From Tagaea sp. (GTDB lineage: Bacteria; Pseudomonadota; Alphaproteobacteria; CACIAM-22H2), in assembly GCA_965279525.1 (NCBI GenBank), contig CBDIIB010000005.1, positions 416,001 through 480,000 of the forward strand: a DNA stretch of 64,000 bases, written 5' to 3'. The notes under the pieces were generated by a model. The model made no database searches and was not told the DNA's origin. It was given only the letters and a program-made list of their open reading frames with translations. This document shows positions 8,595 through 50,259 of the stretch, in pieces; positions within the stretch are counted from its first letter, which is position 1; every line of letters begins with the position of its first letter. The translations under genes and the position numbers were made by a program.

Positions 8595-8670
8595 GCGCGT
8601 GGGTCCTTCAGGCTGGCCGTTCCGGCCGTCAGACTTAGCGCGAAATCAAGGGCTCCGGAAACCCCATTCG

Positions 8671-8686
8671 CTGACCGCCCGGTCAG
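8671..8686. promoter_or_regulatory. Palindromic operator CTGACCG-CC-CGGTCAG (PaaR/TetR-like)
   Basis: Perfect 7-bp inverted repeat in the divergent paaN/paaG spacer. Confidence 0.6.
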
Positions 8687-8751
8687 AGAACGGGGTTGCG
8701 GCATGCGCGGCGTCTTGGCATGGTCGAAGGCCACGGGGGAAACCGATCACG

Positions 8752-9531: not shown

Positions 9532-9532
9532 G

Positions 9533-35760: not shown

Positions 35761-35768
35761 GCGTGACC

Positions 35769-36554
35769 TCAGGTTCCGGTGAACTGCGGCTTGCGCTTCT
35801 CCATGAAGGCCTTGCGGCCTTCCTTGTAGTCGCTGCTGGCGAAGCAGGCGGCGACCATCGCGTCACACTTGGCGATGTCCTGCTTGTCGGGATCCTTCAG
35901 CACCTCGATCGTGCTCTGCTTGATCGTGGCGATCGTCATCGGCGCGTTGTCGGCGATCGTGTTGGCGACGTCCATCACCGTCGTTTCGAGCGCGTCGTCG
36001 GCAATCACGCGATTGACGATGTTCCAGCGCAGCGCTTCGGCACTGGAGAGCTGGCGCGCGGTATAGAAGATTTCCTTGGTCGCGACGGGGCCGATCGTCT
36101 CGATGTAGCGGCGCAGGCCCTTGTAGCCGTAGCCGAGCCCGAGCTTGGCCGCGGGAAGCGCGAACTTCGAGCCTTCAGTCGAGAAGCGCATGTCGCAGCA
36201 GATCGCGAGGTTGAGCCCGCCGCCGATGCAGTAGCCGCGGATCATCGCGATGGTCGGCTTGGGCATCTGGTAGATGCGCATGTAGACCTTCTCGACGAGC
36301 GCATTGTATTTCTGCGCCGCTTCTTCGGAGGCGCGCTCGCTCTCGAACTTCGAGATGTCGGCACCCGACACGAACGCCTTGCCCCCCGCTCCCGTCAGCA
36401 CGATCACGCGCACGTCGGGATCGGCGAGGAATCCGTCGAGGATCTTTTCGGCGGTTTCCCACATCTCGAAGGACACGGCGTTGTGCTTCTCGGGATTGTT
36501 GAAGGTCATGATCCCGACACGGCCTTCCTTGCGGGACAGCATCTTCTCGGTCAT
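35769..36554 (-). CDS. Enoyl-CoA hydratase/isomerase
   Basis: FVSGADISKF, YCIGGG, PAAKLGLGY, DYKEGRKAFMEKRKP. Confidence 0.9.
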   Translation of the reverse strand: MTEKMLSRKEGRVGIMTFNNPEKHNAVSFEMWETAEKILDGFLADPDVRVIVLTGAGGKAFVSGADISKFESERASEEAAQKYNALVEKVYMRIYQMPKPTIAMIRGYCIGGGLNLAICCDMRFSTEGSKFALPAAKLGLGYGYKGLRRYIETIGPVATKEIFYTARQLSSAEALRWNIVNRVIADDALETTVMDVANTIADNAPMTIATIKQSTIEVLKDPDKQDIAKCDAMVAACFASSDYKEGRKAFMEKRKPQFTGT

Positions 36555-36568
36555 ACGCGTCGTCTCCT

Positions 36569-37753
36569 TCAGATCGTTCCGGCGGCCCTGAGGGCCGCGA
36601 TCTCGTCCTTGCCTAGCCCGAATTCGGACAGGATCTCGTCGTTCTGCGCTCCGCGCGCCGGCGGCGGACCGGCGAGACGGCTGGGCGTGCGGCTCATCGC
36701 GAAAGGCTGGCCCATAAGCCTGTAATCGGCACCGGCGACGCTCTGCGCCACGCCGAGATGCCCGACCTGCGGGTCGGCGAACATCTGGTCGATCGCGTAG
36801 ATCGGCCCGCACGGCACGCCGGCGGCATTGAGCTTCTCGACCCAGTCGGCAGACGTTTCCTTCGCGAAGATTGCCTGCAATTCCTCGTTCAGCTTCTCGC
36901 GGTTCTGCGAACGCAGCGACATCTTCGCGTATTCGGGCCGCGCGATCAGGTCCTCGGCACCCAGCGCCTTGGCGCAGCGCTCCCAGATCGCCTGGCCAGT
37001 CGTGGCGAGATTGAGATAGCCGTCCTTCGTCTTGAACACGCCGGTCGGGATGCTGGTGGGGTGGTTGTTGCCGGCCTGCTTGGCGACCTCGCCCTTCACC
37101 AGATAGCGCGCGGCCTGGAAGTCGAGCATGAAGGCCTGCGCCTGCAGGAGCGACGTCTGCACCCACTGCCCCTCGCCCGACACCTCGCGTTCCAGAAGTG
37201 CCGTGAGGATGCCCATCGCGCAGAACAGCCCGGCCGTCAGGTCGGCCAGCGGGATGCCGACACGGACAGGACCCTGGCCCGGCAGGCCAGTCACCGACAT
37301 GAGACCGCCCATGCCCTGCGCGATCTGGTCGAAGCCCGGGCGCTTGGCATAAGGGCCGTCCTGCCCGAAACCGGAGATGCTGCCGTAGACGATGCGCGGA
37401 TTGATCTTCTTGAGGTCGGCATAGGAGATGCCGAGCCGGTCCTTCACGTCGGGCCGGAAATTCTCGACCACCACATCGGCCTTAGCGACCAGCTTGCGGA
37501 ACAGTGCCACGCCTTCGGGCGACTTCAGGTTCAGCGTCAGTGACCGCTTATTGCGGTGGAGATTCATGAAGTCCGCGCCATCGCGCGGCCCGCCCATCGG
37601 GTCGGCCTCTTCGAGATGTTCGGGCATCTCGATCTTGATGACGTTGGCGCCCCAGTCGGCGAGCTGGCGCACGCAGGTGGGACCCGAGCGGACACGCGTG
37701 AGGTCGAGAACGGTGAAGCGCTTGAGCGCCGTCGAGGCCTGCGGAGCGGGCAT
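36569..37753 (-). CDS. Family III CoA transferase (CaiB/BaiF)
   Basis: GANVIKIE, RNKRSLTLNLK, ENFRP, GFGQDGPY, GFDQIAQGMGG, ADLTAG. Confidence 0.92.
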   Translation of the reverse strand: MPAPQASTALKRFTVLDLTRVRSGPTCVRQLADWGANVIKIEMPEHLEEADPMGGPRDGADFMNLHRNKRSLTLNLKSPEGVALFRKLVAKADVVVENFRPDVKDRLGISYADLKKINPRIVYGSISGFGQDGPYAKRPGFDQIAQGMGGLMSVTGLPGQGPVRVGIPLADLTAGLFCAMGILTALLEREVSGEGQWVQTSLLQAQAFMLDFQAARYLVKGEVAKQAGNNHPTSIPTGVFKTKDGYLNLATTGQAIWERCAKALGAEDLIARPEYAKMSLRSQNREKLNEELQAIFAKETSADWVEKLNAAGVPCGPIYAIDQMFADPQVGHLGVAQSVAGADYRLMGQPFAMSRTPSRLAGPPPARGAQNDEILSEFGLGKDEIAALRAAGTI

Positions 37754-37820
37754 GTGCGAGCGAATCTCCCGAGTTCCGGACGCTTGTGGTCCGTTCGTAT
37801 GTCCGCGACCGTGATGTCGA

Positions 37821-37830
37821 TTGTCGACAA
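37821..37830. promoter_or_regulatory. Palindrome TTGTCGACAA, candidate GntR/FCD operator
   Basis: Perfect 10-bp palindrome ~70 bp upstream of an operon that encodes its own GntR. Confidence 0.55.
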
Positions 37831-38006
37831 AGTCAATCGGGATATGCCGAATTTTCTGGCAAACATGCCGATCCGCCGCAAGTCCGTCACGGATATGCTT
37901 AACCAACGGGCAACTTGGTTCGTTACCCGACGCGACTCCCCTTTTGGCTGGACCGGCACTAGTCTTTTTCCATCGCATTCCGTTTTGCTCGGGAAGGAGA
38001 CGGGAA

Positions 38007-38456
38007 ATGGCTGTCCTGACAATCAATGGGAAGACTTACGACGCCGCAGCCGATCCCGAGACGCCGCTCCTGTGGGTCCTGCGCGACACGCTCGGCCTGA
38101 CAGGCACCAAATACGGCTGCGGCATCGCGCAGTGCGGATCCTGCACCGTGCATATCGACGGCGTTCCGACACGATCGTGCTCCGTGCAGCTGGGATCCGT
38201 CGGCGACGGCAAGATCACCACGATCGAAGGCCTCGCCGCCAACGGCATGCTGCACAAGGTGCAGAAGGCCTGGCTCGACAACGACGTTCCGCAATGCGGC
38301 TACTGCCAGAGCGGCATGATCATGGCTGCCGCCGCCCTGCTCGCCGAAAAGCCCAATCCGACCGACGACGACATCGACGCGGCGATGACGAACATCTGTC
38401 GCTGCGGCACCTACCAGCAAGTGCGCGCGGCGATCCACGCCGCCGCCAAGGCCTGA
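38007..38456 (+). CDS. (2Fe-2S)-binding subunit, IorA-type
   Basis: [32 protein letters not shown]. Confidence 0.93.
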
Positions 38457-38470
38457 GGGAGGAACGCGCC

Positions 38471-40630
38471 ATGACAGCGATCGCTTCGATGGACCGCCGC
38501 TCGTTCCTTGTCTCCGCCGCAGCCGGCGGCCTCTCGCTCGGCTTCGGCATCCCGTTCGGCAAGGCAGACGCCCAGGTTGCCGGTGCCGTGCGCGAAATCA
38601 ACGCCTGGGTCGTCATCCACCCCGACGACCGCGTCGTGATCCGCATCGCGCGCTCGGAAATGGGCCAGGGCACGCTCACGGGTCTCGCCCAGCTCGTCGC
38701 CGAGGAACTGGAATGCGACTGGTCGAAAGTATCGACCGAATTTCCCACGCCGGGCCAGAACGTCGCGCGCAACCGCGTGTGGCGCAACTTCTCGACCGGC
38801 GGCAGCCGCGGCATCCGCGAATCGCACGAATACGTGCGCCAGGGTGGTGCCGCCGCACGCATGATGCTGGTCGAGGCCGCAGCCAAGCGCTGGAACGTTC
38901 CGTCCGGCGAGTGCGCTGCCGCCAACAGCGTCATCCGGCACGCGGCCAGCAATCGGACTGTCACTTACGGTGCCGTTGCCGCAGAAGCCGCCCAGCTCCA
39001 GCCGCCCGCGACGGTCGCCCTCAAGGACATCAAGGACTGGAAGATTGCCGGCAAGGGCGTGAAGCGCCTCGACACCGCCGAGAAGCTGAACGGCAGCCTC
39101 GTCTACGGGATCGACTTGCGGCTTCCCAACATGCTGACGGCGACGATCCGCCAGTGTCCGGTGGCCGGCGGCAAGCTAAAGAGCTTCGACGCCGCGAAGG
39201 TCGAGAAGATGCCGGGCGTTCGCAAGGTCGTCGCGGTCGACGGGAACGCCGTCGCGGTCATCGCCGACAGCTACTGGCAGGCGCACAAGGCGATCGACGA
39301 ACTGCCGGTCGACTGGGATCTTGGGCCTGGCGCCAAGACGTCCAGCGCCACGATCGACGCGATGCTGGCCGAAGGCCTGACGGCCGAGAATGCTTTCATC
39401 GGCACGAAGATCGGCGATGCCAAAGTCGCACTCGCCGGGGCCGCCAAGACCGTCGAGGCCGTCTATTCGTATCCCTACCAGAACCACGCGCCGATGGAGC
39501 CGATGAACGCTACGGCGCTCTACACGGCCGATCGCTGCGAAGTCTGGGCACCGACGCAGAACGGCGAGGCGGCCCTTGCGGCGGCGGCCGAGGCCGCCGA
39601 GCTGCCGGTCGCCAAATGCGACGTGCACAAGATGATGCTGGGCGGCGGTTTCGGCCGTCGCGGCCGGTCGGACTTTGTCCGCCAGGCCGTGCTGATCGCC
39701 CGGCAGATGCCCGGCGCGCCGGTGAAGCTCGTCTGGTCGCGCGAAGAGGACATGATGCACTGCGCGTTCCATCCGGTGACGCAGTGCAAGCTGACCGGCG
39801 GGCTTGACGCCGCAGGCAATCTCACCGGCCTGCACATGCGCATCTCCGGCCAGTCGATCCTCGCCTCGTTGCTCCCTCAGAACCTGCAGAACGGCATGGA
39901 CCCGGTCGTGTTCCAGGGTCTCAACGCCGGCGGTGCCGAAGGCCAGTTCGGCTACGACATCCCGAACCTGCTGGTCGACCACGCCATGCGAAATCCGCAC
40001 GTGCTGGCCGGCTTCTGGCGCGGGGTAAATCTCAACCAGAACGCCATCTACGTCGAATGCTTCATGGACGAGCTGGCGCGCGCGGCGGGCCAGGACCCGC
40101 TGGAGTTCCGGCGCAAATACCTGAAGCCCAAGCACCGCGCGGTGCTCGAGGCGGCGGCGGCAGGGGCCGGCTACGGAAAGGCGGCCCCCGGCGTACATCA
40201 CGGCCTTGCCCAGATCATGGGGTTCGGCAGCTACGTTGCGGCGTGCGCGGAAGTCTCGGTCACCAACGGCAAGCTCAAGATCCATCGCATCGTCGCGGCG
40301 ACGGATCCGGGCGTGGTCGTCAATCCGGCCCAGATCGAGCGTCAGGTGTCCGGCTCGTTCGTCTACGGCCTGTCGGCCGCACTCCACGGCCAGTGCACGG
40401 TCAAGGACGGCGTCATCGAGCAGACGAACTTCGACACATATCCGGTGCTACGCATGGACGAGATGCCGAAAGTCGAGACGATCCTGGTTCCCTCGGGTGG
40501 CTTCTGGGGCGGCGTGGGCGAACCGACGATCGGCGTGGCGGCACCCGCGGTGCTCAACGCGATCTTCGCCGCGACCGGCAAGCGCATCCGGTCGCTGCCG
40601 GTGTCCAAGCACGACCTGAAGACCGTGTGA
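38471..40630 (+). CDS. Molybdopterin-binding subunit, IorB-type (xanthine oxidase family), Tat signal
   Basis: DRRSFL, SEMGQG, TGGS, APMEP, LGGGFGRR, GFWRGV, GGVGEP. Confidence 0.92.
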   Translation: MTAIASMDRRSFLVSAAAGGLSLGFGIPFGKADAQVAGAVREINAWVVIHPDDRVVIRIARSEMGQGTLTGLAQLVAEELECDWSKVSTEFPTPGQNVARNRVWRNFSTGGSRGIRESHEYVRQGGAAARMMLVEAAAKRWNVPSGECAAANSVIRHAASNRTVTYGAVAAEAAQLQPPATVALKDIKDWKIAGKGVKRLDTAEKLNGSLVYGIDLRLPNMLTATIRQCPVAGGKLKSFDAAKVEKMPGVRKVVAVDGNAVAVIADSYWQAHKAIDELPVDWDLGPGAKTSSATIDAMLAEGLTAENAFIGTKIGDAKVALAGAAKTVEAVYSYPYQNHAPMEPMNATALYTADRCEVWAPTQNGEAALAAAAEAAELPVAKCDVHKMMLGGGFGRRGRSDFVRQAVLIARQMPGAPVKLVWSREEDMMHCAFHPVTQCKLTGGLDAAGNLTGLHMRISGQSILASLLPQNLQNGMDPVVFQGLNAGGAEGQFGYDIPNLLVDHAMRNPHVLAGFWRGVNLNQNAIYVECFMDELARAAGQDPLEFRRKYLKPKHRAVLEAAAAGAGYGKAAPGVHHGLAQIMGFGSYVAACAEVSVTNGKLKIHRIVAATDPGVVVNPAQIERQVSGSFVYGLSAALHGQCTVKDGVIEQTNFDTYPVLRMDEMPKVETILVPSGGFWGGVGEPTIGVAAPAVLNAIFAATGKRIRSLPVSKHDLKTV

Positions 40631-40632
40631 CG

Positions 40633-41082
40633 ATGAAAGGCCTCCTGCGGCTGGCGGCGGCGATCGTTTTCGCCGCCGCGCCTGCATCCGCCGGCAGCTA
40701 TGTCGTGACCGGCGACGCGATCGAACTGCCGCTCGAAGGCGCGGTCGGCGATGCAGCACGCGGGCGGGCGATCGTCGCGAACCGGACCGTCGGCCTCTGC
40801 CTGCTCTGCCATTCGGGCCCGTTCCCCGAGGAGCGCTTCCAGGGAAATCTGGCCCCGCCGCTGGACGGTGCCGGTGCACGCTGGAATGCCGGCCAACTGC
40901 GCCTGCGGCTCGTCGAGCCGGCGCGCGTTTCGCCCGACAGCCCGATGCCGGCCTATTTCCGGACCGACGGGCTCAAGCGCGTGGCGTCCGCTTTTTCCGG
41001 AAAGCCGCTCCTCACGGCCGCACAGATCGAGGATGTCGTGGCATACTTGGTGACGTTGCGCGAACCGGGAGCCCCGAGATGA
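40633..41082 (+). CDS. soxX: SoxX-like monoheme cytochrome c
   Basis: GDAARGRAIV, CLLCH, GNLAPPL, SPMPAY, IEDVVAYL. Confidence 0.88.
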   Translation: MKGLLRLAAAIVFAAAPASAGSYVVTGDAIELPLEGAVGDAARGRAIVANRTVGLCLLCHSGPFPEERFQGNLAPPLDGAGARWNAGQLRLRLVEPARVSPDSPMPAYFRTDGLKRVASAFSGKPLLTAAQIEDVVAYLVTLREPGAPR

Positions 41083-41534
41083 ATCCCGCCGGCATCACAC
41101 GCCGCATGCTGCTCGGCGGTGCGACGGTCCTGGCCGTCCTGCCGCTCGCATCGGCGCATGCCACGCCCGAGACGATGCGTGCCGCCATCGCCGCCGTCGC
41201 GGCCGGCCGGCCGATGCGCGAAGGCAAGGTCACGCTCGACATCCAGCCACTCGTCGACAACGGCAATACCGTGCCCATGCGCGTCAACGCCGAGAGCCGC
41301 ATGGACGGCGCCGACCACGTGCGCGCGATCCACGTCTTCAACGAGCGCAATCCGCAGCCGCACGTGCTGAGCGTTTCGTTTGGGCCATTGGCCGGGCGCG
41401 CCAGCATCGCCACGCGCATCAAGCTCGGCGACTCGCAGAAAGTCGTCGCGGTCGCCGAGATGCAGGACGGCACGCTGTGGACCGCCAGCGTTGACGTGAT
41501 CGTGACGCTCGCTGCCTGCGTCGAGGGGATCTAG
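41079..41534 (+). CDS. SoxY-related carrier with AACVE arm
   Basis: Tat TRRMLL, DNGNTVP, NPQP, TRIKL..SQ; C-terminus VIVTLAACVEGI. Confidence 0.88.
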   Translation: MNPAGITRRMLLGGATVLAVLPLASAHATPETMRAAIAAVAAGRPMREGKVTLDIQPLVDNGNTVPMRVNAESRMDGADHVRAIHVFNERNPQPHVLSVSFGPLAGRASIATRIKLGDSQKVVAVAEMQDGTLWTASVDVIVTLAACVEGI

Positions 41535-41536
41535 CA

Positions 41537-41857
41537 ATGGCGGTCCCGCTCGTCAATGCGCCGGCCCGCGTTCGCCGCGGCGAAGTCTTCGAGGTGAAGA
41601 CGCTCGTCGCCCACCCGATGGAGACTGGCTACCGTCCGGGCATGAACGGCGTGCTGATCCCGCGCGACATCGTCCAGCGCCTGCGCTGCCGTTACGACGG
41701 CGCCGACGTGCTCGATCTCGAACTGTCGCCGGCCATCGCGGCCAATCCGTTCGTGTCGTTCCACATGCGCGCCGAGCGCAGCGGCATGCTCGAGCTGGTC
41801 TGGACCGGAGACAACGGCTTCGCTGCCAGCCACCGCGTCGCCATCGCGGTCGAGTGA
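41537..41857 (+). CDS. soxZ: SoxZ-like carrier partner
   Basis: HPMETGYR, AIAANP, W.GDNG; no signal peptide. Confidence 0.9.
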   Translation: MAVPLVNAPARVRRGEVFEVKTLVAHPMETGYRPGMNGVLIPRDIVQRLRCRYDGADVLDLELSPAIAANPFVSFHMRAERSGMLELVWTGDNGFAASHRVAIAVE

Positions 41858-42633
41858 GAAGGTCTGTGCGGCATCTGGGGCTGTTCCTTGCTCTCGGCAC
41901 GCTTGCCGCGTCGGCGGCTGGCCAACCCGCCCCGGACACGCGACGCTCCGGCTTCGCGGACATGGGGCCTGCCCTGCAGGCGATCCAGCTCGACGATATG
42001 TCCAATCCCGCGATGCTGTGGATCGCCGAGGGCGAGCGCCTGTGGAACGCCGCCGCCGGCCGTGCGACGAAATCCTGCGCCGCCTGCCATGGTTCAGGCG
42101 AAAGCATGCGCGGGGTCGCCACGCGCTATCCGGCGTTCGACGACAGGATCGGTCACGCCGTCGATCTGGATGGCCGGATCGACCGCTGCCGCAGCCAATA
42201 CCAGCTTGCCGATCCGCCCGCGGCCGAGAGCCGGGAACGCGTGGCGCTGGCGGGTTTCGTCGCGCGGCAGTCGCGCGGGATGCCGATCTCTCCGCCGGCC
42301 GACACGCGTCTCGACGCGTTGGCGTCCGCAGGCGAAGCGCACTATCGTCGCCGCCAGGGCCAGCTCAACCTTTCATGCGCGCAATGTCACGACGAGCGCG
42401 CCGGGGGCAAGCTCGCCGGCGTGACGATCCCGCAGGCCCACCCGACCGGCTATCCGCTCTATCGTTCCGAATGGCAGGCCGTGGGCTCGCTGCAGCGCCG
42501 GCTGCGCAACTGCATGACCGGCGTGCGCGCCGAACCCTATGCGTTCGGTTCGCCGGAGTTTCTCGAACTCGAGATCTACCTGATGCGCCGGGCGGGCGGC
42601 ATGGCGTGGGAAACGCCTGCCGTCCGCCCCTGA
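41854..42633 (+). CDS. soxA: SoxA-like diheme cytochrome c
   Basis: CAACH, CAQCH, GYPLYR.EW, LQRRLRNCMTGVRA, ELEIYL..R, PAVRP. Confidence 0.9.
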   Translation: MRRSVRHLGLFLALGTLAASAAGQPAPDTRRSGFADMGPALQAIQLDDMSNPAMLWIAEGERLWNAAAGRATKSCAACHGSGESMRGVATRYPAFDDRIGHAVDLDGRIDRCRSQYQLADPPAAESRERVALAGFVARQSRGMPISPPADTRLDALASAGEAHYRRRQGQLNLSCAQCHDERAGGKLAGVTIPQAHPTGYPLYRSEWQAVGSLQRRLRNCMTGVRAEPYAFGSPEFLELEIYLMRRAGGMAWETPAVRP

Positions 42634-42648
42634 CAGGCGCGGCCCCGG

Positions 42649-44613
42649 TCAGGCAGCCCGAACGGCGTCGAGGAAGGACGACACGCGCTTGCTCAGCGCG
42701 TCGGCCTGCGTCGCGACCTGGCCCGATGCGGACAGGACGCCGTTCGACGCGATCCCCGTTTCTTCTGCAGCAGAACGCACGCCGGTGATCGCGCGGTTCG
42801 TTTCCTCCACGCCCTGTGCTGCCTGCTCGACATTGCGGCCGATCTCCTGCGTGGCTGCCGTCTGCTCCTCGACTGCCGAAGCGACGGTCGCCGTCATCTC
42901 CGAAATGCCGCGCACGGCGACGCCGATGTCCGACATGGCCTTGACGACCCCACCGGTCTTCTCCTGGATGGCGCTGACCTGGGCCCCGATCTCCTCGGTC
43001 GCCTTGGCGGTCTGCGAGGCGAGCGTCTTGACCTCGTTGGCGACGACCGCGAACCCCTTGCCGGCATCGCCGGCGCGCGCGGCCTCGATCGTCGCGTTGA
43101 GCGCCAGCAGGTTCGTCTGCGACGCGATCGAGTTGATCAGCTTGACGACGTCACCGATGCGTTCGGCGACTTCGCTGAGCTCGCGCACGCGTGCCTCGCT
43201 CGTGGCGGCAAGCTCGGCCGTGCGATTTGCGTTCTCGCTCGACGTGGCGATCTGCCGGGAGATCTCCTTGATCGAGGCGGTCAGCTCTTCGGTCGCCGAT
43301 GCCACGGTCTGCACGTTGGACGACGCCTCGTTCGAACCGGCGGCGGCGGCGATCGAAAGGTCCTGGGCGGTCGCGGAGATGCGGGTCAGGTTCCGCGCCG
43401 TCGATTCGAGATCGGAGACCGACTTGGAAGTCGTGTCGAGGACTTCGGTGACGCCGGACTGGAACTCGTCCGTGATCGACGCCACCCGCTGGGCACGTTC
43501 GAGCTGTGCCATCTGCTGGCGGGTCGCCTGCGCCTCCAGTTCGCGCTGGGCGACCAGATTGTCGCGGAACACGATCAGGCTGCGTCCCATGTCGGCGACT
43601 TCGTCCTTGCCCTGCACGTCGACCGCGATGTCCACGTCGCCATTCCCGAGCTTGTTCATCTGAGACGTGATCTGCGCGATCGGTCCGGCGATGTATCCGG
43701 CGATGAGCAGGCTCAGCAGCACGACAACCGTGGCTATGATCGCCATCGACGCCCACAGGATCATGCTTGCCAGCCGAAGCCGCTCGGCGACCTCGGCCAT
43801 CGCGCGCTCGATGTCGGCCTTCTCCAGTTGCAGGAGCCGATCGACGATCGGCTCGACAGCCGCGAACGTGCGGCTGAGCTCGGTATTCCTCTGGTTCTTG
43901 TCGAAGGTCAAACGAACGTACTCGGCGAACGCGGCGACGTACTCGTTCGTGTTGGCCTCGATCTGCCTTTGTTGCGCAGGGTCCAGGCCGGCGGCCGACA
44001 GAACCGCGGCCAGCCGCGCGGTGTCGCGGGCGTGCGCGTCGACCTCGTTCTGCGTCTCGCGGAGCTGGAAATCCTTTTCGTGACGGCGCAGCTGGAGGAC
44101 GAGCACTACGACCGCATCGCGCCCGAGCTTGTTCAGCTCGGTCTCCGCGGTCTGCACGGCCCGACGCATGACTGCCTGTTGCCCCAGGTTCTGGTTGAGT
44201 CCGAGCCTCGTCATCGTCGCGGCAAGTTCGTCGAACGTCTTCGAGTAGACGGCGATGCCGGCGGCAAGCTGGTCGTAGACCGGCGCGTTCTGCGGGCCCG
44301 CAAGCCCCTTCAGGTGCGATATCGCCTTGTTGACGTTGCCGACGGCCTCGCGATGGCGCGCGACCTCCCTGTCGTCCCGCCGCAGCAGGAAGTCCTTCTC
44401 GTGCCGGCGCATCTGGAGCAGGAGCGTGTCGAATTCGCGCAACCCGTCCGCACGCGCTTCGCCCAGATCCCGCATCTCGGTTGCCGTGTCGGCAATGCGG
44501 GCCTGATAGCCGACCATGGCACCGAGCACCGCGAAACCAACCACCGAGATACCGGCCAGCAGCAGCAACTTCCTTCTGATTTTCAATCTTGCAAGGAACG
44601 CGCGCATTTTCAT
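42649..44613 (-). CDS. Methyl-accepting chemotaxis protein (HBM-like sensor, HAMP)
   Basis: Two TM helices, [34 protein letters not shown]. Confidence 0.93.
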
Positions 44614-44647: not shown

Positions 44648-45385
44648 TCAGCAGGCCGTATGGACCTTGCGTGACGTAGCGCCGCCAGTGCCGGCGGCCG
44701 GCGTTCCGTCGCGGTACGGCACGACGGGCAGATCGTTGAACGTTTCAGGTGTTCCCCGGCCAAGATCGACGAAGGCGCGGAACATGACCGTGCGGTAGTT
44801 CGAGAAATCCGACTTGTCCCAGCTCCAGCCGAAATCGTCGAGTGGCGAGAAGACGACGTACACGTAGCGGACATCGTCGGAGCCGGACTGGTCGCGGACC
44901 GGCACGTTCAGCACCTCGAACAGCCGCTCGCGGCCGCGGTCGCTCGATGCGACGAGGTTGGTGACCATCGCGCATCCGTGCGCGGCGATCGCCACATAGG
45001 CCTCGGCTGCAGAGTTCCGGCGTGCGGCCGGAACCAGGTCGAGATAACGCCGGCCCGTCGGGTCGAGACCGATGAAACCGCAATACTCGGTCCCGGCCAG
45101 CCGGTAGACCGGATCGAGCGGATTCGAGATGTCGAGGATGGCCATGCGGGGCAGGCAGGTGCGCAGCGCGCCCGGATCGATCGACGCCCGGGTCGGCAAC
45201 TGCCCGCCAACCCGTTCCATTTCGGCGCGGAAATGACCCAGCAGCGTGCGGGAAGCCGCGTTCTTCAGCGTTGCATCGGCTTGCGCCAGGCTGTCGATCC
45301 GACATGCTGTCATTTCGCGCTTCCCCGGCAACTGCATGGTCCCCTGCGGGACCTCTTGTTTGGTAAAGACGTGGATAACCTTCAT
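44648..45385 (-). CDS. Stand-alone PAS_5 (DUF1457-type) domain protein
   Basis: LPTRASIDP...LP, YRLAGT...GLDPTG; start uncertain. Confidence 0.75.
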
Positions 45386-45546
45386 TTGCCGTCCTCGCGA
45401 ACCGGCAGACGTATCCGCCGGAACGCCATTCGCGCAGACGCGATATACCTTCGTCTATTGGCCGGATACCGGGATGCGGACGCGCAACGAGGCATTGAGC
45501 CACCGGAGACCTCCCGCCACACTGGGCTCCTGAGGAAAGTGCCCAA

Positions 45547-46116
45547 ATGGCCCGGGAGTTCGCGATGAAAGACCATCTGATGGCTCCGGTCTCGATCGAG
45601 GTGATCCTGGACGGGGGCGGCATGGTCCTGCACCAGCAATGCGAACCGACATTCCCGGGAGCGCCGGACAGGCTCGTGGGCCGGGACATCGCGGCCTTGC
45701 TGCCGCTTGGCGAGGAGTCGGCATTGCGTCGCTGTCTTGGCAGAACCGTGCCGGCCGACGGTGCTTCCGGACTCGATCTCGTCGCATTTCCGGACGCGCG
45801 CCCGATGCTGTTGCGGTTCTACATCCTGCCGGACGGTGCGGGCAGCCGGCGCGTGCTGTTTTCGGCCGACGGCACCTTGAACGGCTTCAACGGCGTGCTG
45901 CGCGCGGCACTCGGGGCCGTCCACGAACTGAACAACACGATCGGGACGATCGCCGGCTTCGCCGACCTGTTGAAGGACGGGAGCCTGCCCGCCGACAAGT
46001 CGCGCCGCTATCTCGATCGGATAGAAACTTCGGTCCAGGAAGCGCGGGAAATCGGCGAGAAGCTGTCGCGCGACATGCGACGGCTCGCCGCCGAAACCGC
46101 GCGGGCGGCTACCTGA
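45547..46116 (+). CDS. PAS-like plus HisKA dimerisation domain protein, no ATPase domain
   Basis: LVGRDIAALLP; H-box VHELNNTIGTIAGFADLL; ends ~60 aa later. Confidence 0.65.
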   Translation: MAREFAMKDHLMAPVSIEVILDGGGMVLHQQCEPTFPGAPDRLVGRDIAALLPLGEESALRRCLGRTVPADGASGLDLVAFPDARPMLLRFYILPDGAGSRRVLFSADGTLNGFNGVLRAALGAVHELNNTIGTIAGFADLLKDGSLPADKSRRYLDRIETSVQEAREIGEKLSRDMRRLAAETARAAT

Positions 46117-46723
46117 CAAGGCCTTCTTTCAGCGCGAAGGTCGCAAGCTGGGTGCGGTTCTTGAGTTTCGTGCGGTCGAGGATGCGCGTGAGGTTCATCT
46201 TGATCGTGACTTCCTGGAGACCAAGTTCGCGCGCGATCTGCTTGTTCGAACGTCCGTCGGTGACGGAGCGGATGATCGCCATCTCGCGTTCCGAGAAACC
46301 CGCCGCGCGCCTTTCGTGAGCCTCGGAAACGCCCTTTTCGACCCGCGGGAAGTAGCTTCCGCCCGCGATGACCAGCCGGATTGCCGAGCACAGCAACCTC
46401 GTTTCGAGCGACTTGGGCAGGAACGCGTTGAAGCCCGCCTCCTGCACGAGAAGGACGGTGTTCGGATCGCTCTCGCCGGAAATGATCGCAAGCGGTCCTT
46501 CACCGACAAGTGCGCGCAACCGGACGGCCGCATCGCGAAGTTCGACACCGGGCATGTCGAGATCCATCAGCACGAGCGCGCAATCCACGTCGCCCTGCAG
46601 ATGGACCAGCATCTCGTCGAAGCTCGCCGCCCGCTGCCAGCTTGCGACGACGCCATCGCGCTCGAGAAGGCCGATCAGGGCCTCGACGAAGATCGGATGA
46701 TCGTCGGCAATGAGGATTCGCAT
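46109..46723 (-). CDS. NarL/LuxR family response regulator
   Basis: ILIADDH, LMDLDMPG, FLPK, FSERE...GRSNKQIAREL...TIK. Confidence 0.92.
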   Translation of the reverse strand: MRILIADDHPIFVEALIGLLERDGVVASWQRAASFDEMLVHLQGDVDCALVLMDLDMPGVELRDAAVRLRALVGEGPLAIISGESDPNTVLLVQEAGFNAFLPKSLETRLLCSAIRLVIAGGSYFPRVEKGVSEAHERRAAGFSEREMAIIRSVTDGRSNKQIARELGLQEVTIKMNLTRILDRTKLKNRTQLATFALKEGLVR

Positions 46724-46882
46724 CGGTTCCTGTCGTTCTCGACGGCTTGACCGGCACTGACAACCCGTTGAGCATACAATCAACAAGGCTGCGCCGGAAC
46801 GGTTGCGGGAAAACCGTCGACCAGTTCCGGCTTCAACGACCCAAAGGGAGGAATATATCTGAATTAACAATAATTTAGATAC

Positions 46883-49513
46883 ATGCCGCATGTTTCAGCG
46901 TCTCGGTCCGCCCCGCCTCCCCCAACTCCGCGAGAAACGCCGCCCGTGCTTCTCTGGCTCCTTTCCGGCACCTTTTCGGCCCTGACGGCGGCGATCTGCC
47001 TCGTTCTCGTGCGCTATCGCGCGGGCCGGCCGTGGCTGCTGTTTTTCGCCGTTTCGAGCGCGTTCTTCGCCATGACGGCGCTGCTCGCCGCCTACGTACC
47101 GAGCGTCGACGCGTCCCAGATCCGCATGCAGGGCACGATGCCTGCGATCCTGACGACGACGACCGGGTTCATCGTCTTCGCGGTCTATGCCGTCTTGAGC
47201 CTCGAGAACGCGAAACTCTCCCTTCGCCAGGCCACGCTCGTCACGATCGTCGCCGCTGCAACGCTGAATGCCGTCGATGCCGCCTTCGGCAGCAAGCTCG
47301 CGTTCGGATGCATCCTCGTCGGGAACGTCGCTTCAGGTGCGTACATCGCAAGCCGGCTCATGCGACGGGGGTCCGTCTTCTACGTCTTCGCCGGAGCCGT
47401 GTTCGCCGTGCGCGCGGCCAACGGCCTGCTGACGCTGATCGTCGGGCTCGGCCATCCCGATCCGCTGCTGGTCGAGATCATCCGCCATGTCAGCGTCGGC
47501 GCCAACCTGGCGACGGCGCTTTCGGTGCTGCTGATCGAGTTCGACGACACGCGCCGCAGCCTGATCGAGACGCGCGACACGCTGGCCATCGCGCTCGAGC
47601 GCACCGAGGCGCTGTCGCAGAGTCGCGCCGAAATCAACCGGCAGCTGGCATCCGTCCTCGACAGCACGCTCGTCGGGATCTATTCGGTGCGCGACGGTCG
47701 CGTCGTTTCGGCCAACCGGCGCGCCGAGGAGATGCTCGACGCGGGCGAAGGCGAGCTCGTCGGCAAACCGATCGGATCGCATTTCTCCGCGATTGACGCA
47801 TATCGCGATTTCGAGGCGCGCGCGGCAAGCCCGACGGAAAGCCGGATCCCGATTGCGGGCGAGTTCGAGATCCTGCGACCCGGCAGCGATACGCGCTGGA
47901 TTCTGCTTTCAGGCCGCGCCGCAACCGACGGTGCGGAGCCGGCGGAAAGCGTTTGGATGATGGTCGACATCTCCGATCGCAAGCTGGCCGAGCTGGCACT
48001 GCGCCAGAGCGAGCGGAAGTTCCAGTCCCTGTTCCGCGATTCGCCGATCGCGATGACGATCCGCGATTCTCGCGAACGCCGCATCATCCAGGTCAACCCG
48101 GCCTGGGAACGCCTGACCGGGTGGACGGCCATGGAAGCGTTCGGGCGGACCTCCGCGGAACTCGGCCTTTACGTCCGCGCTGCCGACCGCGACAGGGTCG
48201 CAGCCGCGCGCAGCCGGCAAGGTATCGACGAAGTGCAGGTGGACATCAAGACCAAGACAGGCGAGGTGAAGACCGTCCAGCTGCGCGGCAATCCGCTGGC
48301 TGGCTACGATCCGGACCTCTACATCGTCATGACGGTCGACATCACCGAACAGATCCGGCTCGAGACCCAATTGCGCCACGCCCAGAAGCTCGAGGCGATC
48401 GGCCAGCTCACCGGCGGCATCGCACACGATTTCAACAATCTTCTTGCCGTCATCCTCGGCAATCTCGAAGCACTGCAGAAGAATCTCGTCGGCAGCGAGC
48501 GTGCGCGACTCGACAAGGCGATCCTCGCCGCCGAGCGCGGCGCTTCGCTGACGCGCAACCTGCTTGCCTTCGCGAGACGCCAGCCGCTTGCCTCGAGCGC
48601 CGTTTCGATCCAGGCCGTCCTCGGCGACATGATGCCGCTGCTTCGCACTTTCGTCGACGACCGGATATCCCTCGATATTCGCATCGACGAGGATCCGCCG
48701 GCCGTCCAGATCGACGGCGGCATGCTTCAGAATGCAGTCATCAATCTGGTCGTCAATGCGCGCGATGCGCTGGCGCAGGGCGGGCGCATCGAGCTCGGCG
48801 TGGCCTGCCGCAAGTTCGACGCCGGGACGGTGCAGGGCAAGCGGAAGGTGCCGCCGGGCCGCTATGTCGAAGTGACCGTCGGCGACAACGGAACGGGTAT
48901 CGACGAGAAGCTGATCGATCGCATTTTCGAGCCTTTCTTCACCACGAAGGATCTGGGAAGCGGCACTGGCCTCGGGCTCAGCATGGTGCATGGGTTCGTC
49001 GAGCAGTCCGGCGGCCATCTGTGGGTCGAATCGGCGCTCGGGACGGGCACGAAAGTCCATCTGCTGTTTCCGGCGGCGGGCGTCGTGCTTCCGGCGCTGT
49101 CCGTGCCTGCCTCACCGGACTTGCCGGACGGAGCCGGGCGCCATGTCCTCGTCGTCGAGGACAATGCGGGGGTCGCCGCACTTGTCGGCGAAATTCTCGA
49201 CGGCTTCGGTTTCGCGACCAGCCTGATCCGGACGGCGCCGGAGGCCGTCGAGACGCTGCGCGGCGACGGGGCCATCGACATTCTCGTGACCGATATCGTA
49301 CTGCCCGGCAACATGAACGGCTGCCAGCTCGTCGAGGCGGCGCGTACGCTTCGCCCCGGCCTAGCCTGCATCCTGATGTCGGGCTATCCGCGCGATGCGC
49401 TCGAAAGCATGGATCTGCTCGACTCGGTACCCTTGCTGCGCAAGCCGTTCCGGTCAGCCGACATGGCCCAGGCGCTGCGCCAGGTACTCGCCGGACCCGA
49501 AGCGACACGCTGA
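46883..49513 (+). CDS. Membrane-bound hybrid sensor histidine kinase (2 PAS, HisKA, HATPase, REC)
   Basis: Multi-TM N-terminus, AHDFNNLL, NARDA, DNGTG, FFTTK, GLGLS, VEDN/TDIVLPG/KP. Confidence 0.92.
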   Translation: MPHVSASRSAPPPPTPRETPPVLLWLLSGTFSALTAAICLVLVRYRAGRPWLLFFAVSSAFFAMTALLAAYVPSVDASQIRMQGTMPAILTTTTGFIVFAVYAVLSLENAKLSLRQATLVTIVAAATLNAVDAAFGSKLAFGCILVGNVASGAYIASRLMRRGSVFYVFAGAVFAVRAANGLLTLIVGLGHPDPLLVEIIRHVSVGANLATALSVLLIEFDDTRRSLIETRDTLAIALERTEALSQSRAEINRQLASVLDSTLVGIYSVRDGRVVSANRRAEEMLDAGEGELVGKPIGSHFSAIDAYRDFEARAASPTESRIPIAGEFEILRPGSDTRWILLSGRAATDGAEPAESVWMMVDISDRKLAELALRQSERKFQSLFRDSPIAMTIRDSRERRIIQVNPAWERLTGWTAMEAFGRTSAELGLYVRAADRDRVAAARSRQGIDEVQVDIKTKTGEVKTVQLRGNPLAGYDPDLYIVMTVDITEQIRLETQLRHAQKLEAIGQLTGGIAHDFNNLLAVILGNLEALQKNLVGSERARLDKAILAAERGASLTRNLLAFARRQPLASSAVSIQAVLGDMMPLLRTFVDDRISLDIRIDEDPPAVQIDGGMLQNAVINLVVNARDALAQGGRIELGVACRKFDAGTVQGKRKVPPGRYVEVTVGDNGTGIDEKLIDRIFEPFFTTKDLGSGTGLGLSMVHGFVEQSGGHLWVESALGTGTKVHLLFPAAGVVLPALSVPASPDLPDGAGRHVLVVEDNAGVAALVGEILDGFGFATSLIRTAPEAVETLRGDGAIDILVTDIVLPGNMNGCQLVEAARTLRPGLACILMSGYPRDALESMDLLDSVPLLRKPFRSADMAQALRQVLAGPEATR

Positions 49514-49635
49514 CGCAGATACCGAGGTATATGCGCCGGGCAGGACGGCTAACCGCACCGAAAATGCCCGACCCGGTGACGGTTCGTTAACGACCTTGGC
49601 CCTATCAGACACGCCCCAAGACGAACGATGGATGC

Positions 49636-50259
49636 GTGAAAGTGACGATCGAGACTTGCCATGAATTCAAGCGGCGCCGCGACCTCTGGTTTGACGACAT
49701 CCTGGCCGGGCGCACCGACAGGATCGACAGGACGTTCGCGAAGTCTGGTGCTTCGAGTCCGTCCACGCTCTGGACGCCCAGGGCCGAGGAAGCCCAGACC
49801 GCGCCGATCCACCACCTGATCCGCTATTTCGAAGGGAAGATCGCGGCGGGCGCGCGCGCGGCGGCAGCATCTCTCGATCCGGCCGAGTTCCGGCCCGCAC
49901 TCGGTTACGTGAACGTCGTCGAGCCGGTCGACGGAGGCCGAGATTTCCGATTTCGCATTTTCGGAACGTTCGTCGCCGCGGTCACCGGCTGCGACCTGAC
50001 GGGCCAACTCCTGTCGCAGATGCCGGCAAGCGACTATGTCGTCGACCATGCGCTGGCCTGCTACCGCGCCGCCCATGCGCGCCGCCTGCCGCTCCTGACC
50101 TCGCGCATCCCGCTGGGTGCGGCGAACACGCGGCGCTGGGAACGGCTCCTGCTGCCGTTCGTCGATCCCTCCGGCGCCGTTTCGCGGCTGCTTGTCGGCA
50201 CCGTGCCGATCGGCGTGGCCGGCATGCCGATGCGCCCGCAGCTTCTGGCGGGCGCCTGA
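49636..50259 (+). CDS. Stand-alone PAS_5 domain protein
   Basis: LDPAEFRPALG, FRFRIFGT...GCDLTG, WERLLLPF. Confidence 0.75.
   Translation: MKVTIETCHEFKRRRDLWFDDILAGRTDRIDRTFAKSGASSPSTLWTPRAEEAQTAPIHHLIRYFEGKIAAGARAAAASLDPAEFRPALGYVNVVEPVDGGRDFRFRIFGTFVAAVTGCDLTGQLLSQMPASDYVVDHALACYRAAHARRLPLLTSRIPLGAANTRRWERLLLPFVDPSGAVSRLLVGTVPIGVAGMPMRPQLLAGA

What the first reader, a model, noticed from the sequence alone, without database searches (positions are those of the whole stretch)
38007..42633. IorAB molybdoenzyme coupled to a divergent SoxX-Y*-Z-A module: candidate uncharacterised periplasmic sulfur-chemistry system
Seen: six tightly packed co-oriented genes (gaps 14, 2, -4, 2, -4 nt); Tat motifs on IorB and SoxY*; SoxA keeps both CxxCH motifs and the RNCM cysteine; SoxX keeps CxxCH and a Met; no soxB, soxC or soxD in the window. 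Known: in the thiosulfate Sox cycle SoxAX attaches substrate to the SoxY arm cysteine, SoxCD (sulfite oxidase family Mo) oxidises it and SoxB hydrolyses it. A SoxY variant with an AACIE-like arm is, to my recollection, catalogued as a family, but I know of no assigned function. Inference: a xanthine-oxidase-family enzyme may take the place of SoxCD/SoxB, oxidising an organic thiol, thioaldehyde or S-heterocycle tethered to SoxY*Z; alternatively the module delivers sulfur to regenerate the Mo=S ligand, or SoxAX is the electron acceptor of IorAB, which has no FAD subunit here.
Basis: partly seen in the sequence, partly recalled or inferred. Interest (0 to 1): 0.82.

Follow-up and report, generated by a model that had tools for sequence, protein, structure and literature searches.

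The report
Molybdenum enzyme operon with variant Sox carrier
Six tightly packed genes pair an exported molybdenum oxidase with a non-standard copy of the bacterial sulfur-carrier (Sox) proteins; the pairing is real, widespread and already noticed, its job is still unknown, and modelling here suggests the carrier's arm plugs directly into the molybdenum enzyme.

Summary
In detail: iorA-iorB-soxX-soxY*-soxZ-soxA form one compact + strand block (38007-42633) with exactly the stated gaps, Tat motifs, haem motifs and an AACVE carrier arm. It is not unique. This scan has met the same cassette on other DNA in at least 18 windows. It was noted once in print, in Starkeya novella in 2013, without a function.

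The linkage is conserved from both sides:
- 63 of 64 soxY* loci with enough upstream DNA carry iorB.
- 22 of 27 IorB-clade genes in a phylum sample sit beside a soxY-type gene.

This copy is a minimal form. It has no fccAB inside the operon, and the genome has no SoxB or SoxC, so it cannot be a spare part of ordinary thiosulfate oxidation here.

New evidence here:
- A structure prediction docks SoxY*Z, arm included, onto IorB (score 0.72, best control 0.01).
- IorB orthologues that lost their sox neighbours have preferentially changed those interface residues.

Best reading (about 0.5): SoxAX loads a sulfur species on SoxY*, and IorAB oxidises it while tethered. Rival: SoxAX merely accepts IorAB's electrons; one genome keeps iorAB-soxXA without any SoxY.

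The substrate is unknown. Novelty: a variant of a known kind.

The parts
38007..38456 (+). iorA: small subunit of a xanthine-oxidase-family molybdoenzyme, two [2Fe-2S] domains, no signal peptide (probably exported with IorB)
   Evidence: Translation; Pfam Fer2 and Fer2_2; 92% identical orthologue in the same position in L005.
38471..40630 (+). iorB: Tat-exported molybdopterin-binding large subunit. The motifs EMGQG, TQNGE, GGGFGRRG and GVGEPT are conserved. There is no FAD subunit and no cytochrome c subunit in the operon.
   Evidence: MoCoBD_1, MoCoBD_2; no NCBIfam equivalog is reached; the closest solved chain is 8gy3_C, an aldehyde dehydrogenase large subunit (E 5e-74); motif residues are invariant in 33 orthologues.
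40633..41082 (+). soxX: monohaem c-type cytochrome (CLLCH) with a signal-peptide-like N-terminus
   Evidence: (TIGR04485, 70.6 bits against a cut-off of 61).
41079..41534 (+). soxY*: Tat-exported carrier protein with C-terminal arm VTLAACVEGI; Cys147 is the presumed attachment site
   Evidence: TIGR04487, 187.4 against 172; T143, A146 and C147 invariant; aligns to Paracoccus SoxY 2oxg_Y up to the Cys.
41537..41857 (+). soxZ: partner of SoxY*, no signal peptide
   Evidence: TIGR04490, 76.3 against 76, borderline; PF08770.
41854..42633 (+). soxA: dihaem cytochrome with both CxxCH motifs and both Cys haem ligands (IDRCRS, RNCM)
   Evidence: TIGR04484, 204.8 against 110; full-length alignment to 1h31_A and 2c1d_A with these residues aligned.

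Best explanation
The six genes are one periplasmic operon. It is a minimal, fccAB-less copy of a conserved cassette in which a variant Sox loading and carrier set is dedicated to a xanthine-oxidase-family molybdoenzyme.

Proposed mechanism:
1. SoxAX has three c-haems, and both Cys haem ligands of SoxA are kept. It oxidatively couples a reduced sulfur species to Cys147 on the AACVE arm of SoxY*Z. This step is inferred from homology with canonical SoxAX/SoxYZ.
2. SoxY*Z docks on IorB, and the loaded arm reaches the substrate channel of the Mo site. Docking is predicted here and backed by an evolutionary test, but it has not been shown experimentally.
3. IorAB oxidises the tethered group with water-derived oxygen. 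My preferred guess is the sulfane sulfur of a persulfide or polysulfide adduct, that is, a SoxCD-like job done by a different Mo family. This step is inferred.
4. Electrons leave through the two [2Fe-2S] clusters of IorA to c-type cytochromes. In this version, which lacks FccA, that would be SoxAX itself or an unlinked soluble cytochrome c. This step is inferred.

How the product leaves SoxY* without SoxB is not explained. The genome does hold a SorA-like sulfite dehydrogenase and a separate FccAB that could act before or after the module.
For: Gene content and competence.

Linkage from the SoxY* side:
- 63 of 64 loci with at least 5.5 kb upstream have iorB upstream on the same strand. These come from the best 80 of 573 relatives.
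- 13 of 13 other genomes over the TIGR04487 cut-off, in a 401-genome phylum sample, also have it.

Linkage from the IorB side:
- Orthologues at 57% identity or more form a sharply separate set; the next best match is 45%.
- 22 of 27 such places lie beside a SoxY-family gene. Gene content was checked by tblastn for 17 of them.
- The clade has SH-aLRT support of 100.

Independence from SoxB:
- None is found in this genome.
- None is found in 8 of the 22 linked sample genomes.

Docking:
- SoxY*(29-151) + SoxZ + IorB(35-719) scored 0.72 in the three-run median, against 0.01 for the best of 3 controls.
- That mark was reached by 58 of 80 solved complexes and 2 of 110 mismatched pairs.
- The runs share at least 91% of contacts, and the partner's pLDDT is at least 89.
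- The interface holds the arm (residues 143-148, including Cys147) and the invariant SoxY* patch (P57, L58, N61, G62, N63, N91, P92).
- On IorB it holds residues flanking the TQNGE and GGGFGRRG loops.
- No solved entry contains both families, so a pass from memory is unlikely.

Interface relaxation, counted at positions at least 85% conserved among 34 linked IorBs:
- Four orthologues without sox neighbours changed 30 of 88 interface cells against 169 of 1316 non-interface cells (odds ratio 3.5).
- Linked ones of equal divergence changed 1 of 22 (L128), 0 of 22 (L129), 4 of 22 (L120) and 4 of 22 (L125).

Sulfur context: an FccB-like sulfide dehydrogenase flavoprotein lies between iorB and soxX in 66 of 72 linked loci, with a 99-aa CTGCH cytochrome gene before it.
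Against: - No experiment exists. The docking is a model made without cofactors, with my own alignments and three chains, unlike the tool's calibration.
- That the contact loops line the Mo channel rests on recalled homology with xanthine dehydrogenase residues (Gln767, Glu802, Leu873, Phe914 equivalents). This is consistent with the alignment ranges, but it was not seen in a structure.
- The relaxation test uses non-independent sequences (L138 and L140 are sisters), and surface positions may drift faster anyway.
- Xanthine-oxidase-family enzymes are known for C-H hydroxylation, not sulfur oxygenation (my knowledge).
- G206 keeps intact iorA-iorB-soxX-soxA with no SoxY-family gene anywhere in a 100%-complete genome. 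So IorAB and SoxAX may work together without a carrier.
- In the phylum sample all 13 genomes over the TIGR04487 cut-off also have SoxB, against 61 of 401 overall. Dependence on the ordinary Sox system is therefore not excluded in most hosts.
- The Starkeya cluster was barely expressed on thiosulfate, methanol or glucose (PMC3797975).
- There is no release step for the product.
Confidence: 0.5

Rival explanations
1. IorAB is an ordinary dehydrogenase for a free periplasmic substrate (an aldehyde or N-heterocycle). SoxAX, with FccA where present, has replaced the cytochrome c third subunit typical of IorAB-type enzymes and simply carries its electrons away. SoxY*Z is then an accessory or works separately.
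For: - The closest solved homologue is the large subunit of a three-subunit aldehyde dehydrogenase (8gy3_C).
- 3 of the 8 nearest outgroup IorB loci whose output was obtained (L146-L148) have a CxxCH cytochrome gene immediately downstream (the script stopped after 8 of 14 loci).
- This operon has no other cytochrome.
- G206 keeps iorAB-soxXA, all intact, with no SoxY-family gene in the genome.
Against: - It does not explain why a carrier with an invariant Cys arm accompanies IorB in 22 of 27 places.
- It does not explain why the model docks that arm on IorB.
- It does not explain why the docking surface decays when the sox genes are lost.
- SoxA keeps the Cys-ligated catalytic haem, which a mere electron carrier would not need.
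- G206 is a single genome nested within carrier-bearing relatives, so it may be a recent deletion.
Confidence: 0.2
2. The mechanism is as in the best explanation, but the tethered substrate is organic: a thiol joined to SoxY* as a mixed disulfide, or an aldehyde held as a hemithioacetal on Cys147. IorAB then hydroxylates or oxidises the carbon next to sulfur.
For: - Xanthine-oxidase-family chemistry is carbon-centred (my knowledge).
- The nearest solved relative oxidises aldehydes.
- The cassette was silent on thiosulfate in Starkeya.
- soxY2 is dispensable for thiosulfate oxidation in Bradyrhizobium diazoefficiens (PMC5748708, introduction passage). That soxY2 is the AAC-arm gene is my inference.
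Against: - No conserved neighbour points to an organic substrate. Beyond the eight core genes, recurrent neighbours are lineage-specific.
- The usual in-operon partner is a sulfide dehydrogenase flavocytochrome.
- A hemithioacetal route would not need SoxAX.
Confidence: 0.12
3. The sox paralogues are spare or isoenzyme parts that feed the ordinary SoxB/SoxCD thiosulfate pathway, and the Mo enzyme is only a neighbour.
For: - All 13 other genomes over the TIGR04487 cut-off have SoxB elsewhere, against 61 of 401 in the whole sample.
- Within the window's genus, 5 of the 7 relatives over the cut-off have SoxB. So does G416, whose SoxY* match scores 166.7 bits, just under it.
Against: - This genome has no SoxB or SoxC, yet the operon is intact.
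- 8 of 22 linked sample genomes lack SoxB.
- The arm differs at every flanking position from GGCGG.
- The iorAB linkage is too constant for a chance neighbour.
- The Starkeya cluster is not induced by thiosulfate.
Confidence: 0.06
4. The Sox module builds a persulfide on SoxY* in order to restore the Mo=S ligand of periplasmic IorAB after desulfuration. It would be a maintenance system, not a substrate carrier.
For: - The predicted access of the Cys arm to IorB would fit this too.
- Xanthine-oxidase-family enzymes need a terminal sulfido ligand (my knowledge).
Against: - Four or six dedicated genes for repair is costly.
- Other Tat-exported IorAB-type enzymes, such as the outgroup loci, have no such module.
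- Nothing was tested here.
Confidence: 0.05

Closest known systems
Second sox gene cluster of Starkeya novella (soxX2Y2Z2A2F2, Snov_1982-1977, with the xanthine-oxidase-family Mo enzyme Snov_1975/1976; Kappler and Nouwens 2013, PMC3797975, passages read)
   Same: It combines SoxX, SoxY, SoxZ and SoxA paralogues with a xanthine-oxidase-family molybdoenzyme and has no SoxB or SoxCD in the cluster. Its function is unknown.
   Different: The Starkeya cluster includes the SoxF-like flavocytochrome, and the host has a full Sox system. Here fccAB is missing from the operon and the genome has no SoxB or SoxC. I did not compare the Starkeya sequences directly.
Canonical Sox (Kelly-Friedrich) thiosulfate-oxidising system: SoxAX, SoxYZ, SoxB, SoxCD (Paracoccus pantotrophus, Rhodovulum sulfidophilum; PDB 2c1d, 1h31, 2oxg)
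   Same: SoxA, SoxX and SoxZ pass the NCBIfam cut-offs. SoxA aligns full-length with both haem motifs and both Cys ligands. SoxY* has the same fold family, with the Cys at the aligned position.
   Different: The arm is AACVE-GI, not GGCGG. SoxY* fails the true-SoxY model (89.3 against 125). There is no SoxB or SoxCD. The constant enzyme partner belongs to a different Mo family.
SoxCD sulfane dehydrogenase (sulfite-oxidase family)
   Same: In the proposed working: a periplasmic Mo enzyme oxidising sulfur held on the SoxY arm.
   Different: The fold and cofactor chemistry are unrelated. IorAB is xanthine-oxidase family with two [2Fe-2S] clusters and no haem subunit of its own. The likeness is a hypothesis, not a membership.
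Membrane-bound aldehyde dehydrogenase of acetic acid bacteria (PDB 8gy3, three subunits)
   Same: It holds the closest solved homologue of IorB (E 5e-74 over the full length). It has the same small FeS subunit plus large Mo subunit design without FAD.
   Different: That enzyme has a cytochrome c third subunit and oxidises free aldehydes. Here the neighbours are SoxX, SoxY*, SoxZ and SoxA, and the loops in the predicted SoxY*Z interface differ from 8gy3_C in the alignment.
NCBIfam TIGR04557, 'quinoprotein dehydrogenase-associated SoxYZ-like carrier'
   Same: It is another named case of a SoxYZ-type carrier tied to a non-Sox periplasmic dehydrogenase. SoxY* and SoxZ hit it weakly (54.6 and 41.3 bits).
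   Different: It is a fused Y-Z protein with a different partner enzyme family. Only its name is known to me, and it was not examined here.

Membership tests
NCBIfam TIGR04487, SoxY-related AACIE arm protein | Score over the curated cut-off (172 bits) | tested here: met
   187.4 bits.
NCBIfam TIGR04487, SoxY-related AACIE arm protein | C-terminal A-A-C-x-E arm in place of GGCGG | tested here: met
   The protein ends VTLAACVEGI. A146 and C147 are invariant in 33 orthologues.
True SoxY (TIGR04488) | GGCGG arm and a score over 125 bits | tested here: not met
   89.3 bits and the arm is AACVE. The genome's true SoxY lies elsewhere (153.5 bits).
SoxA (TIGR04484), dihaem type | Score over the cut-off, two CxxCH motifs and Cys axial ligands | tested here: met
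   204.8 bits against 110. CAACH, CAQCH, IDRCRS and RNCM align to 1h31_A and 2c1d_A.
SoxX (TIGR04485) | Score over the cut-off and one CxxCH motif | tested here: met
   70.6 bits against 61; CLLCH.
SoxZ (TIGR04490) | Score over the cut-off (76 bits) | tested here: met
   76.3 bits, borderline. Pfam SoxZ scores 86.9 bits.
Complete Sox thiosulfate-oxidising system | SoxB present | tested here: not met
   The best match in the genome scores 127.4 bits against a cut-off of 550. Genome completeness is 97%.
Complete Sox thiosulfate-oxidising system | SoxCD present | tested here: not met
   The best SoxC-model match scores 174 bits against 420. It is a SorA-like protein. SoxD was not searched on its own.
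Xanthine-oxidase family Mo hydroxylase, two-subunit IorAB type | Large subunit with both molybdopterin-binding domains, and a small subunit with two [2Fe-2S] domains | tested here: met
   PF02738, PF20256, PF01799 and PF00111.
Xanthine-oxidase family Mo hydroxylase, two-subunit IorAB type | Catalytic Glu and Mo-site loops kept | tested here: inconclusive
   E684 in GVGEPT, Q363 in TQN and GGGFG 391-395 are invariant in 33 orthologues. Their equivalence to the xanthine dehydrogenase active-site residues is recalled, not shown by a structure here.
Isoquinoline 1-oxidoreductase (the enzyme that gives IorAB its name) | Activity on isoquinoline, or orthology to the characterised enzyme | not tested
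   No model for it scored. The name is used only as a label for the subunit architecture.
Three-subunit membrane-bound aldehyde dehydrogenase (8gy3 type) | Cytochrome c third subunit encoded with the FeS and Mo subunits | tested here: not met
   The genes after iorB are soxX, soxY*, soxZ and soxA. No multihaem cytochrome gene is in the block.

The most novel reading that the evidence does not exclude
IorAB would be the first xanthine-oxidase-family molybdoenzyme whose substrate is tethered to a carrier protein. With SoxAX and SoxY*Z it would form a self-contained periplasmic sulfur-oxidation route that needs neither SoxB nor SoxCD, widespread in soil, freshwater and marine Proteobacteria.
Probability: 0.4. 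Interest if true: 0.85.

Novelty: new variant of a known kind. Interest (0 to 1): 0.62.

Why it matters
The Sox carrier mechanism is a textbook of bacterial sulfur oxidation, and its only known partners on the carrier arm are SoxAX, SoxB and SoxCD. A conserved second carrier dedicated to a xanthine-oxidase-family enzyme would add a new enzyme class to carrier-bound sulfur chemistry. It would also add a new type of substrate, a protein-tethered one, to a much-studied Mo enzyme family.

The cassette occurs in common soil and freshwater genera. In the phylum sample 14 of 401 genomes pass the NCBIfam cut-off, and more are found by synteny. It has sat unexplained since 2013.

This genome is a useful natural test case. 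It holds the minimal six-gene form with no SoxB, no SoxC and no in-operon flavocytochrome.

The predicted interface gives concrete residues to mutate: SoxY* Cys147 and the P57-N63 patch, and IorB 364-371, 398-400, 462-472 and 505-509.

Tried and rejected
- Conserved neighbours outside the core. I clustered ORFs from 101 sequences: 100 fetched loci, four of which turned out to be canonical GGCGG sox loci, plus the window's own stretch. The recurrent extra families (TPP enzyme, M19 dipeptidase, AsnC regulator, class II aldolase, NMT1-like binding protein, MFS) are lineage-specific and give no substrate clue.
- Promoter and terminator scan of 37400-43000. It found 0 promoter-like sites and 1 terminator-like site, fewer than in shuffles, so it is uninformative.
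- Literature. 'AACIE' gave 23 papers; the 20 listed are all irrelevant. 'SoxY-related' gave 0. 'SoxY' with 'isoquinoline 1-oxidoreductase' gave 2 unrelated papers. 'soxXYZA'/'molybdopterin'/'flavocytochrome' gave nothing on this cassette in the passages read.
- Expression. One RNA library (X22) holds contigs 90-95% like the stretch, at depth 3.6-9.9. They bridge the iorA/iorB, iorB/soxX, soxX/soxY* and soxY*/soxZ/soxA junctions. They come from a relative, DNA carry-over cannot be excluded, and contigs cannot show a transcript, so I use this only as a weak hint.
- Active-site numbering. An attempt to display an alignment of the IorB active-site loops with xanthine dehydrogenase chains returned only 8gy3_C, so that numbering stays recalled.
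- Outgroup script. The script that looked for cytochrome genes downstream of outgroup IorBs stopped with an error after 8 of 14 loci. Only the printed part is used.
- SoxAX-IorA docking and a canonical-SoxYZ specificity control could not be run (complex jobs: 1 of 1 used).

Full report
**Observation.** The six ORFs translate cleanly at the coordinates given: iorA 38007-38456, iorB 38471-40630, soxX 40633-41082, soxY* 41079-41534, soxZ 41537-41857 and soxA 41854-42633. All are on the + strand, with spacings of 14, 2, -4, 2 and -4 nt.

IorB (MDRRSFL) and SoxY* (TRRMLLGG) carry twin-arginine motifs. SoxX has CLLCH. SoxA has two CxxCH motifs and RNCM. SoxY* ends VTLAACVEGI.

NCBIfam places SoxY* in TIGR04487, 'SoxY-related AACIE arm protein' (187.4 bits, cut-off 172), and not in true SoxY (89.3 against 125). 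SoxA, SoxX and SoxZ pass their cut-offs, SoxZ barely. Pfam gives two [2Fe-2S] domains for IorA and both molybdopterin-binding domains for IorB.

The block is flanked by a divergent CoA-transferase gene and a convergent chemoreceptor gene. A consensus scan for promoters and terminators was uninformative.

**The host genome.** The window lies in a 4.35 Mb, 97%-complete genome. Its closest named loci are from Tagaea MAGs.

- No SoxB reaches the cut-off; the best match scores 127.4 against 550.
- No SoxC reaches the cut-off; the best match scores 174 against 420 and is a SorA-like protein with Mo-binding and dimerisation domains.
- tblastn finds no second SoxA, SoxX or SoxZ like those of the window.
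- The family model does find an orphan canonical soxYZ pair (GGCGG type; 153.7 and 124.2 bits) beside an ArsR-type regulator on another contig.
- A separate FccB with a cytochrome gene lies on a third contig.

- 64 loci have at least 5.5 kb upstream of soxY*. Of these, 63 have iorB upstream on the same strand; the exception is L067.
- Of the 16 loci with shorter flanks, 9 still show part of iorB.
- SoxX, SoxZ and SoxA were all found in 77 of 80 loci.
- In 66 of the 72 iorB-linked loci, an FccB/SoxF-like sulfide dehydrogenase flavoprotein lies between iorB and soxX. A 99-aa CTGCH cytochrome gene lies before it.
- Six loci (L005-L009, L059) lack both, like the window.

In an evenly drawn sample of 401 genomes of the phylum, 14 pass the TIGR04487 cut-off, including this one. 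All 13 others have iorA-iorB directly upstream. The arm reads [LIM][AS]AC-x-[ED] in nearly all loci; the four canonical loci fetched for contrast read IGGCGG.

**Conservation seen from IorB.** Searching the same 401 genomes with IorB gives a clean break. There are 27 places in 26 other genomes at 57-72% identity (872 bits or more); the next best is 45% (570 bits).

- 22 of the 27 lie beside a SoxY-family gene. I checked 17 by tblastn and 5 by coordinates only.
- Four have no sox gene within the 19-20 kb fetched (G262, G256, G350 and a second copy in G351).
- One, G206, has intact iorA-iorB-soxX-soxA but no soxY*Z. No SoxY-family gene is found anywhere in that 100%-complete genome.

I built a quick maximum-likelihood tree of 49 IorBs. 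The rows were 33 linked ones that I picked for diversity out of about 100 loci, the 6, and 10 outgroup matches at 39-45% identity.

- The clade at 56% identity or more is separated from the outgroup with SH-aLRT support of 100.
- Three of the four unlinked copies and G206 nest inside linked ones, as expected for secondary loss. The fourth, L139, sits unresolved at the base of the clade.
- The window's clade is sister to a Vineibacter locus that still has fccB, so the six-gene form is derived.

Three of the eight outgroup loci whose output was obtained have a CxxCH cytochrome gene right after iorB (partial output).

**Relation to SoxB.** All 13 sample genomes over the TIGR04487 cut-off have SoxB, against 61 of 401 overall. 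That is a strong association, although these genomes span only 5 genera.

If membership is defined by synteny instead, 8 of 22 linked genomes lack SoxB: seven from one family, whose arms read LAACLIG or LAACVIG and score just under the cut-off, plus G279.

In the window's own genus, 7 of 18 relatives pass the SoxY* cut-off and 7 have SoxB. Five have both, and so does G416, whose SoxY* match scores 166.7 bits, just under the cut-off. G412 (98% complete), G410 (74% complete) and this genome have SoxY* without SoxB.

The cassette therefore often lives beside the ordinary Sox system but does not need it.

**Does the carrier meet the Mo enzyme?** I spent the single complex job on the open pair: SoxY* (residues 29-151), SoxZ and IorB (35-719), each with a 33-row alignment, with IorB as the scored partner.

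- The score was 0.72 (runs 0.72, 0.70 and 0.76), against 0.01 for the best of three controls.
- That mark was reached by 58 of 80 solved complexes and 2 of 110 mismatched pairs in the tool's calibration. My three-chain job with my own alignments only roughly matches that calibration.
- The runs share at least 91% of contacts, and the partner's pLDDT is at least 89. This supports binding but does not show it.
- On SoxY*, the interface is the arm (143-148, with Cys147) plus the most conserved surface patch (56-63, 91-92, 115-118).
- On SoxZ, it is residues 30-40.
- On IorB, it is residues 364-374, 398-400, 462-472, 475, 479, 505-509 and 515.
- These IorB residues flank the invariant TQNGE and GGGFGRRG loops.

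By my recollection of xanthine dehydrogenase, these are the segments that line the substrate channel. The alignment ranges fit that, but I could not display the alignment.

No PDB entry contains both families.

**An independent check of the interface.** I took positions that are at least 85% conserved among the 34 linked IorBs.

- The four orthologues that lost their sox neighbours have changed 30 of 88 interface cells, against 169 of 1316 non-interface cells (odds ratio 3.5, Fisher p = 8e-7).
- Individually: L138 changed 9 of 22, L140 11 of 22, L139 5 of 22 and L141 5 of 22.
- Linked orthologues of similar overall divergence changed 1 of 22 (L128), 0 of 22 (L129), 4 of 22 (L120) and 4 of 22 (L125).
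- G206, which lost only the carrier, changed 3 of 22 against 14 of 329.

Caveats: the sequences are related (L138 and L140 are sisters), the linked rows helped to define the consensus, and surfaces drift faster than cores.

**Competence of the parts.** SoxA aligns over its full length with the dihaem SoxA proteins of Rhodovulum and Paracoccus. Both haem motifs and both cysteine ligands are aligned. SoxY* aligns with Paracoccus SoxY up to the carrier cysteine. The closest solved IorB relative is the large subunit of a three-subunit aldehyde dehydrogenase (8gy3_C, E 5e-74). No NCBIfam equivalog is reached.

**Literature and earlier notes.**
- Kappler and Nouwens (2013, PMC3797975, passages read) describe a second sox cluster in Starkeya novella with a xanthine-oxidase-family enzyme in the operon. 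Its SoxAX and SoxYZ were not detected, and its genes were barely expressed, on thiosulfate, methanol or glucose.
- A Bradyrhizobium diazoefficiens paper (PMC5748708, introduction passage) states that only soxY1, not soxY2, is essential for thiosulfate oxidation.
- I found no paper assigning a function.
- This scan's earlier notes describe the same cassette in at least 18 other windows. They gave me the lead to the Starkeya paper, which I then read myself.

**Expression.** Contigs from one RNA library, 90-95% like the stretch and at low depth, bridge all the gene junctions. This is only a weak hint that a relative's operon is transcribed.

**Interpretation.** The evidence fits a dedicated unit in which SoxAX loads SoxY*Z and IorAB acts on the loaded arm. 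The usual flavocytochrome partner and the Sox-rich hosts point to inorganic reduced sulfur.

I favour oxidation of carrier-bound sulfane sulfur, a SoxCD-like role, with electrons leaving through IorA to c-type cytochromes. Here that would be SoxAX itself or a soluble cytochrome.

What is shown: gene content, conservation from both sides, and independence from SoxB in this genome. What is modelled: docking. What is inferred: the substrate, the chemistry and the electron path. What is unexplained: product release without SoxB, and the carrier-less G206 locus. G206 keeps alive the rival that SoxAX is simply IorAB's redox partner.

Noticed in passing
L137 (G206:C1:2347000-2366000), genes at about 7849-11916: Intact iorA-iorB-soxX-soxA with soxY*Z and fccAB missing. 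No SoxY-family (PF13501) match was found anywhere in that 100%-complete, single-contig genome. In the tree its IorB nests among carrier-bearing Reyranella-like loci.
   Followed up: partly
Own genome, contig C4:211179-212037 (L004:8179-9037): An orphan canonical soxY (GGCGG type, 153.7 bits) and soxZ (124.2 bits) sit beside an ArsR-family regulator. No soxAX, soxB or soxCD lies nearby or elsewhere in the genome.
   Followed up: partly
L128, L129, L130, L142 (genomes G374, G124, G203, G279): These are synteny-confirmed members of the cassette whose SoxY* scores below the TIGR04487 cut-off (170.6, 164.8, 160 and 113.7 bits). Their arms read LAACLIG, LAACVIG and LSACIDGG (L142 was not read). The curated cut-off therefore misses part of the family.
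   Followed up: partly
L067, soxY* at 10001-10402: This is the only locus with 10 kb of upstream DNA in which no iorA, iorB or soxX was found next to soxY*-soxZ-soxA.
   Followed up: no
L072 and L074: Here the IorB next to the sox genes is only 51% identical to the window's, and iorA lies about 2.5 kb further upstream than usual. This suggests extra genes or a different Mo-enzyme paralogue in these two loci.
   Followed up: no
Own genome, C3:3928-5220 and C2:229004-230320 (L135, L136): A separate FccB-type sulfide dehydrogenase flavoprotein has a cytochrome gene next to it. A SorA-like sulfite-oxidase-family enzyme is followed by a 117-aa ORF with no Pfam hit. These are the genome's other candidate sulfur-oxidation genes.
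   Followed up: partly
window 35763-37166: Two overlapping ORFs on opposite strands (35763-36725 +, 35769-37166 -) lie between the GntR-type regulator gene and the CoA-transferase gene. The + ORF has no Pfam hit. I did not settle which one is the real gene.
   Followed up: no
window 44648-50259: Just downstream of the operon is a dense run of signalling genes: a chemoreceptor, two PAS_5 proteins, a short HisKA protein, a LuxR-type response regulator and a PAS-rich hybrid histidine kinase. No link to the operon was tested.
   Followed up: no
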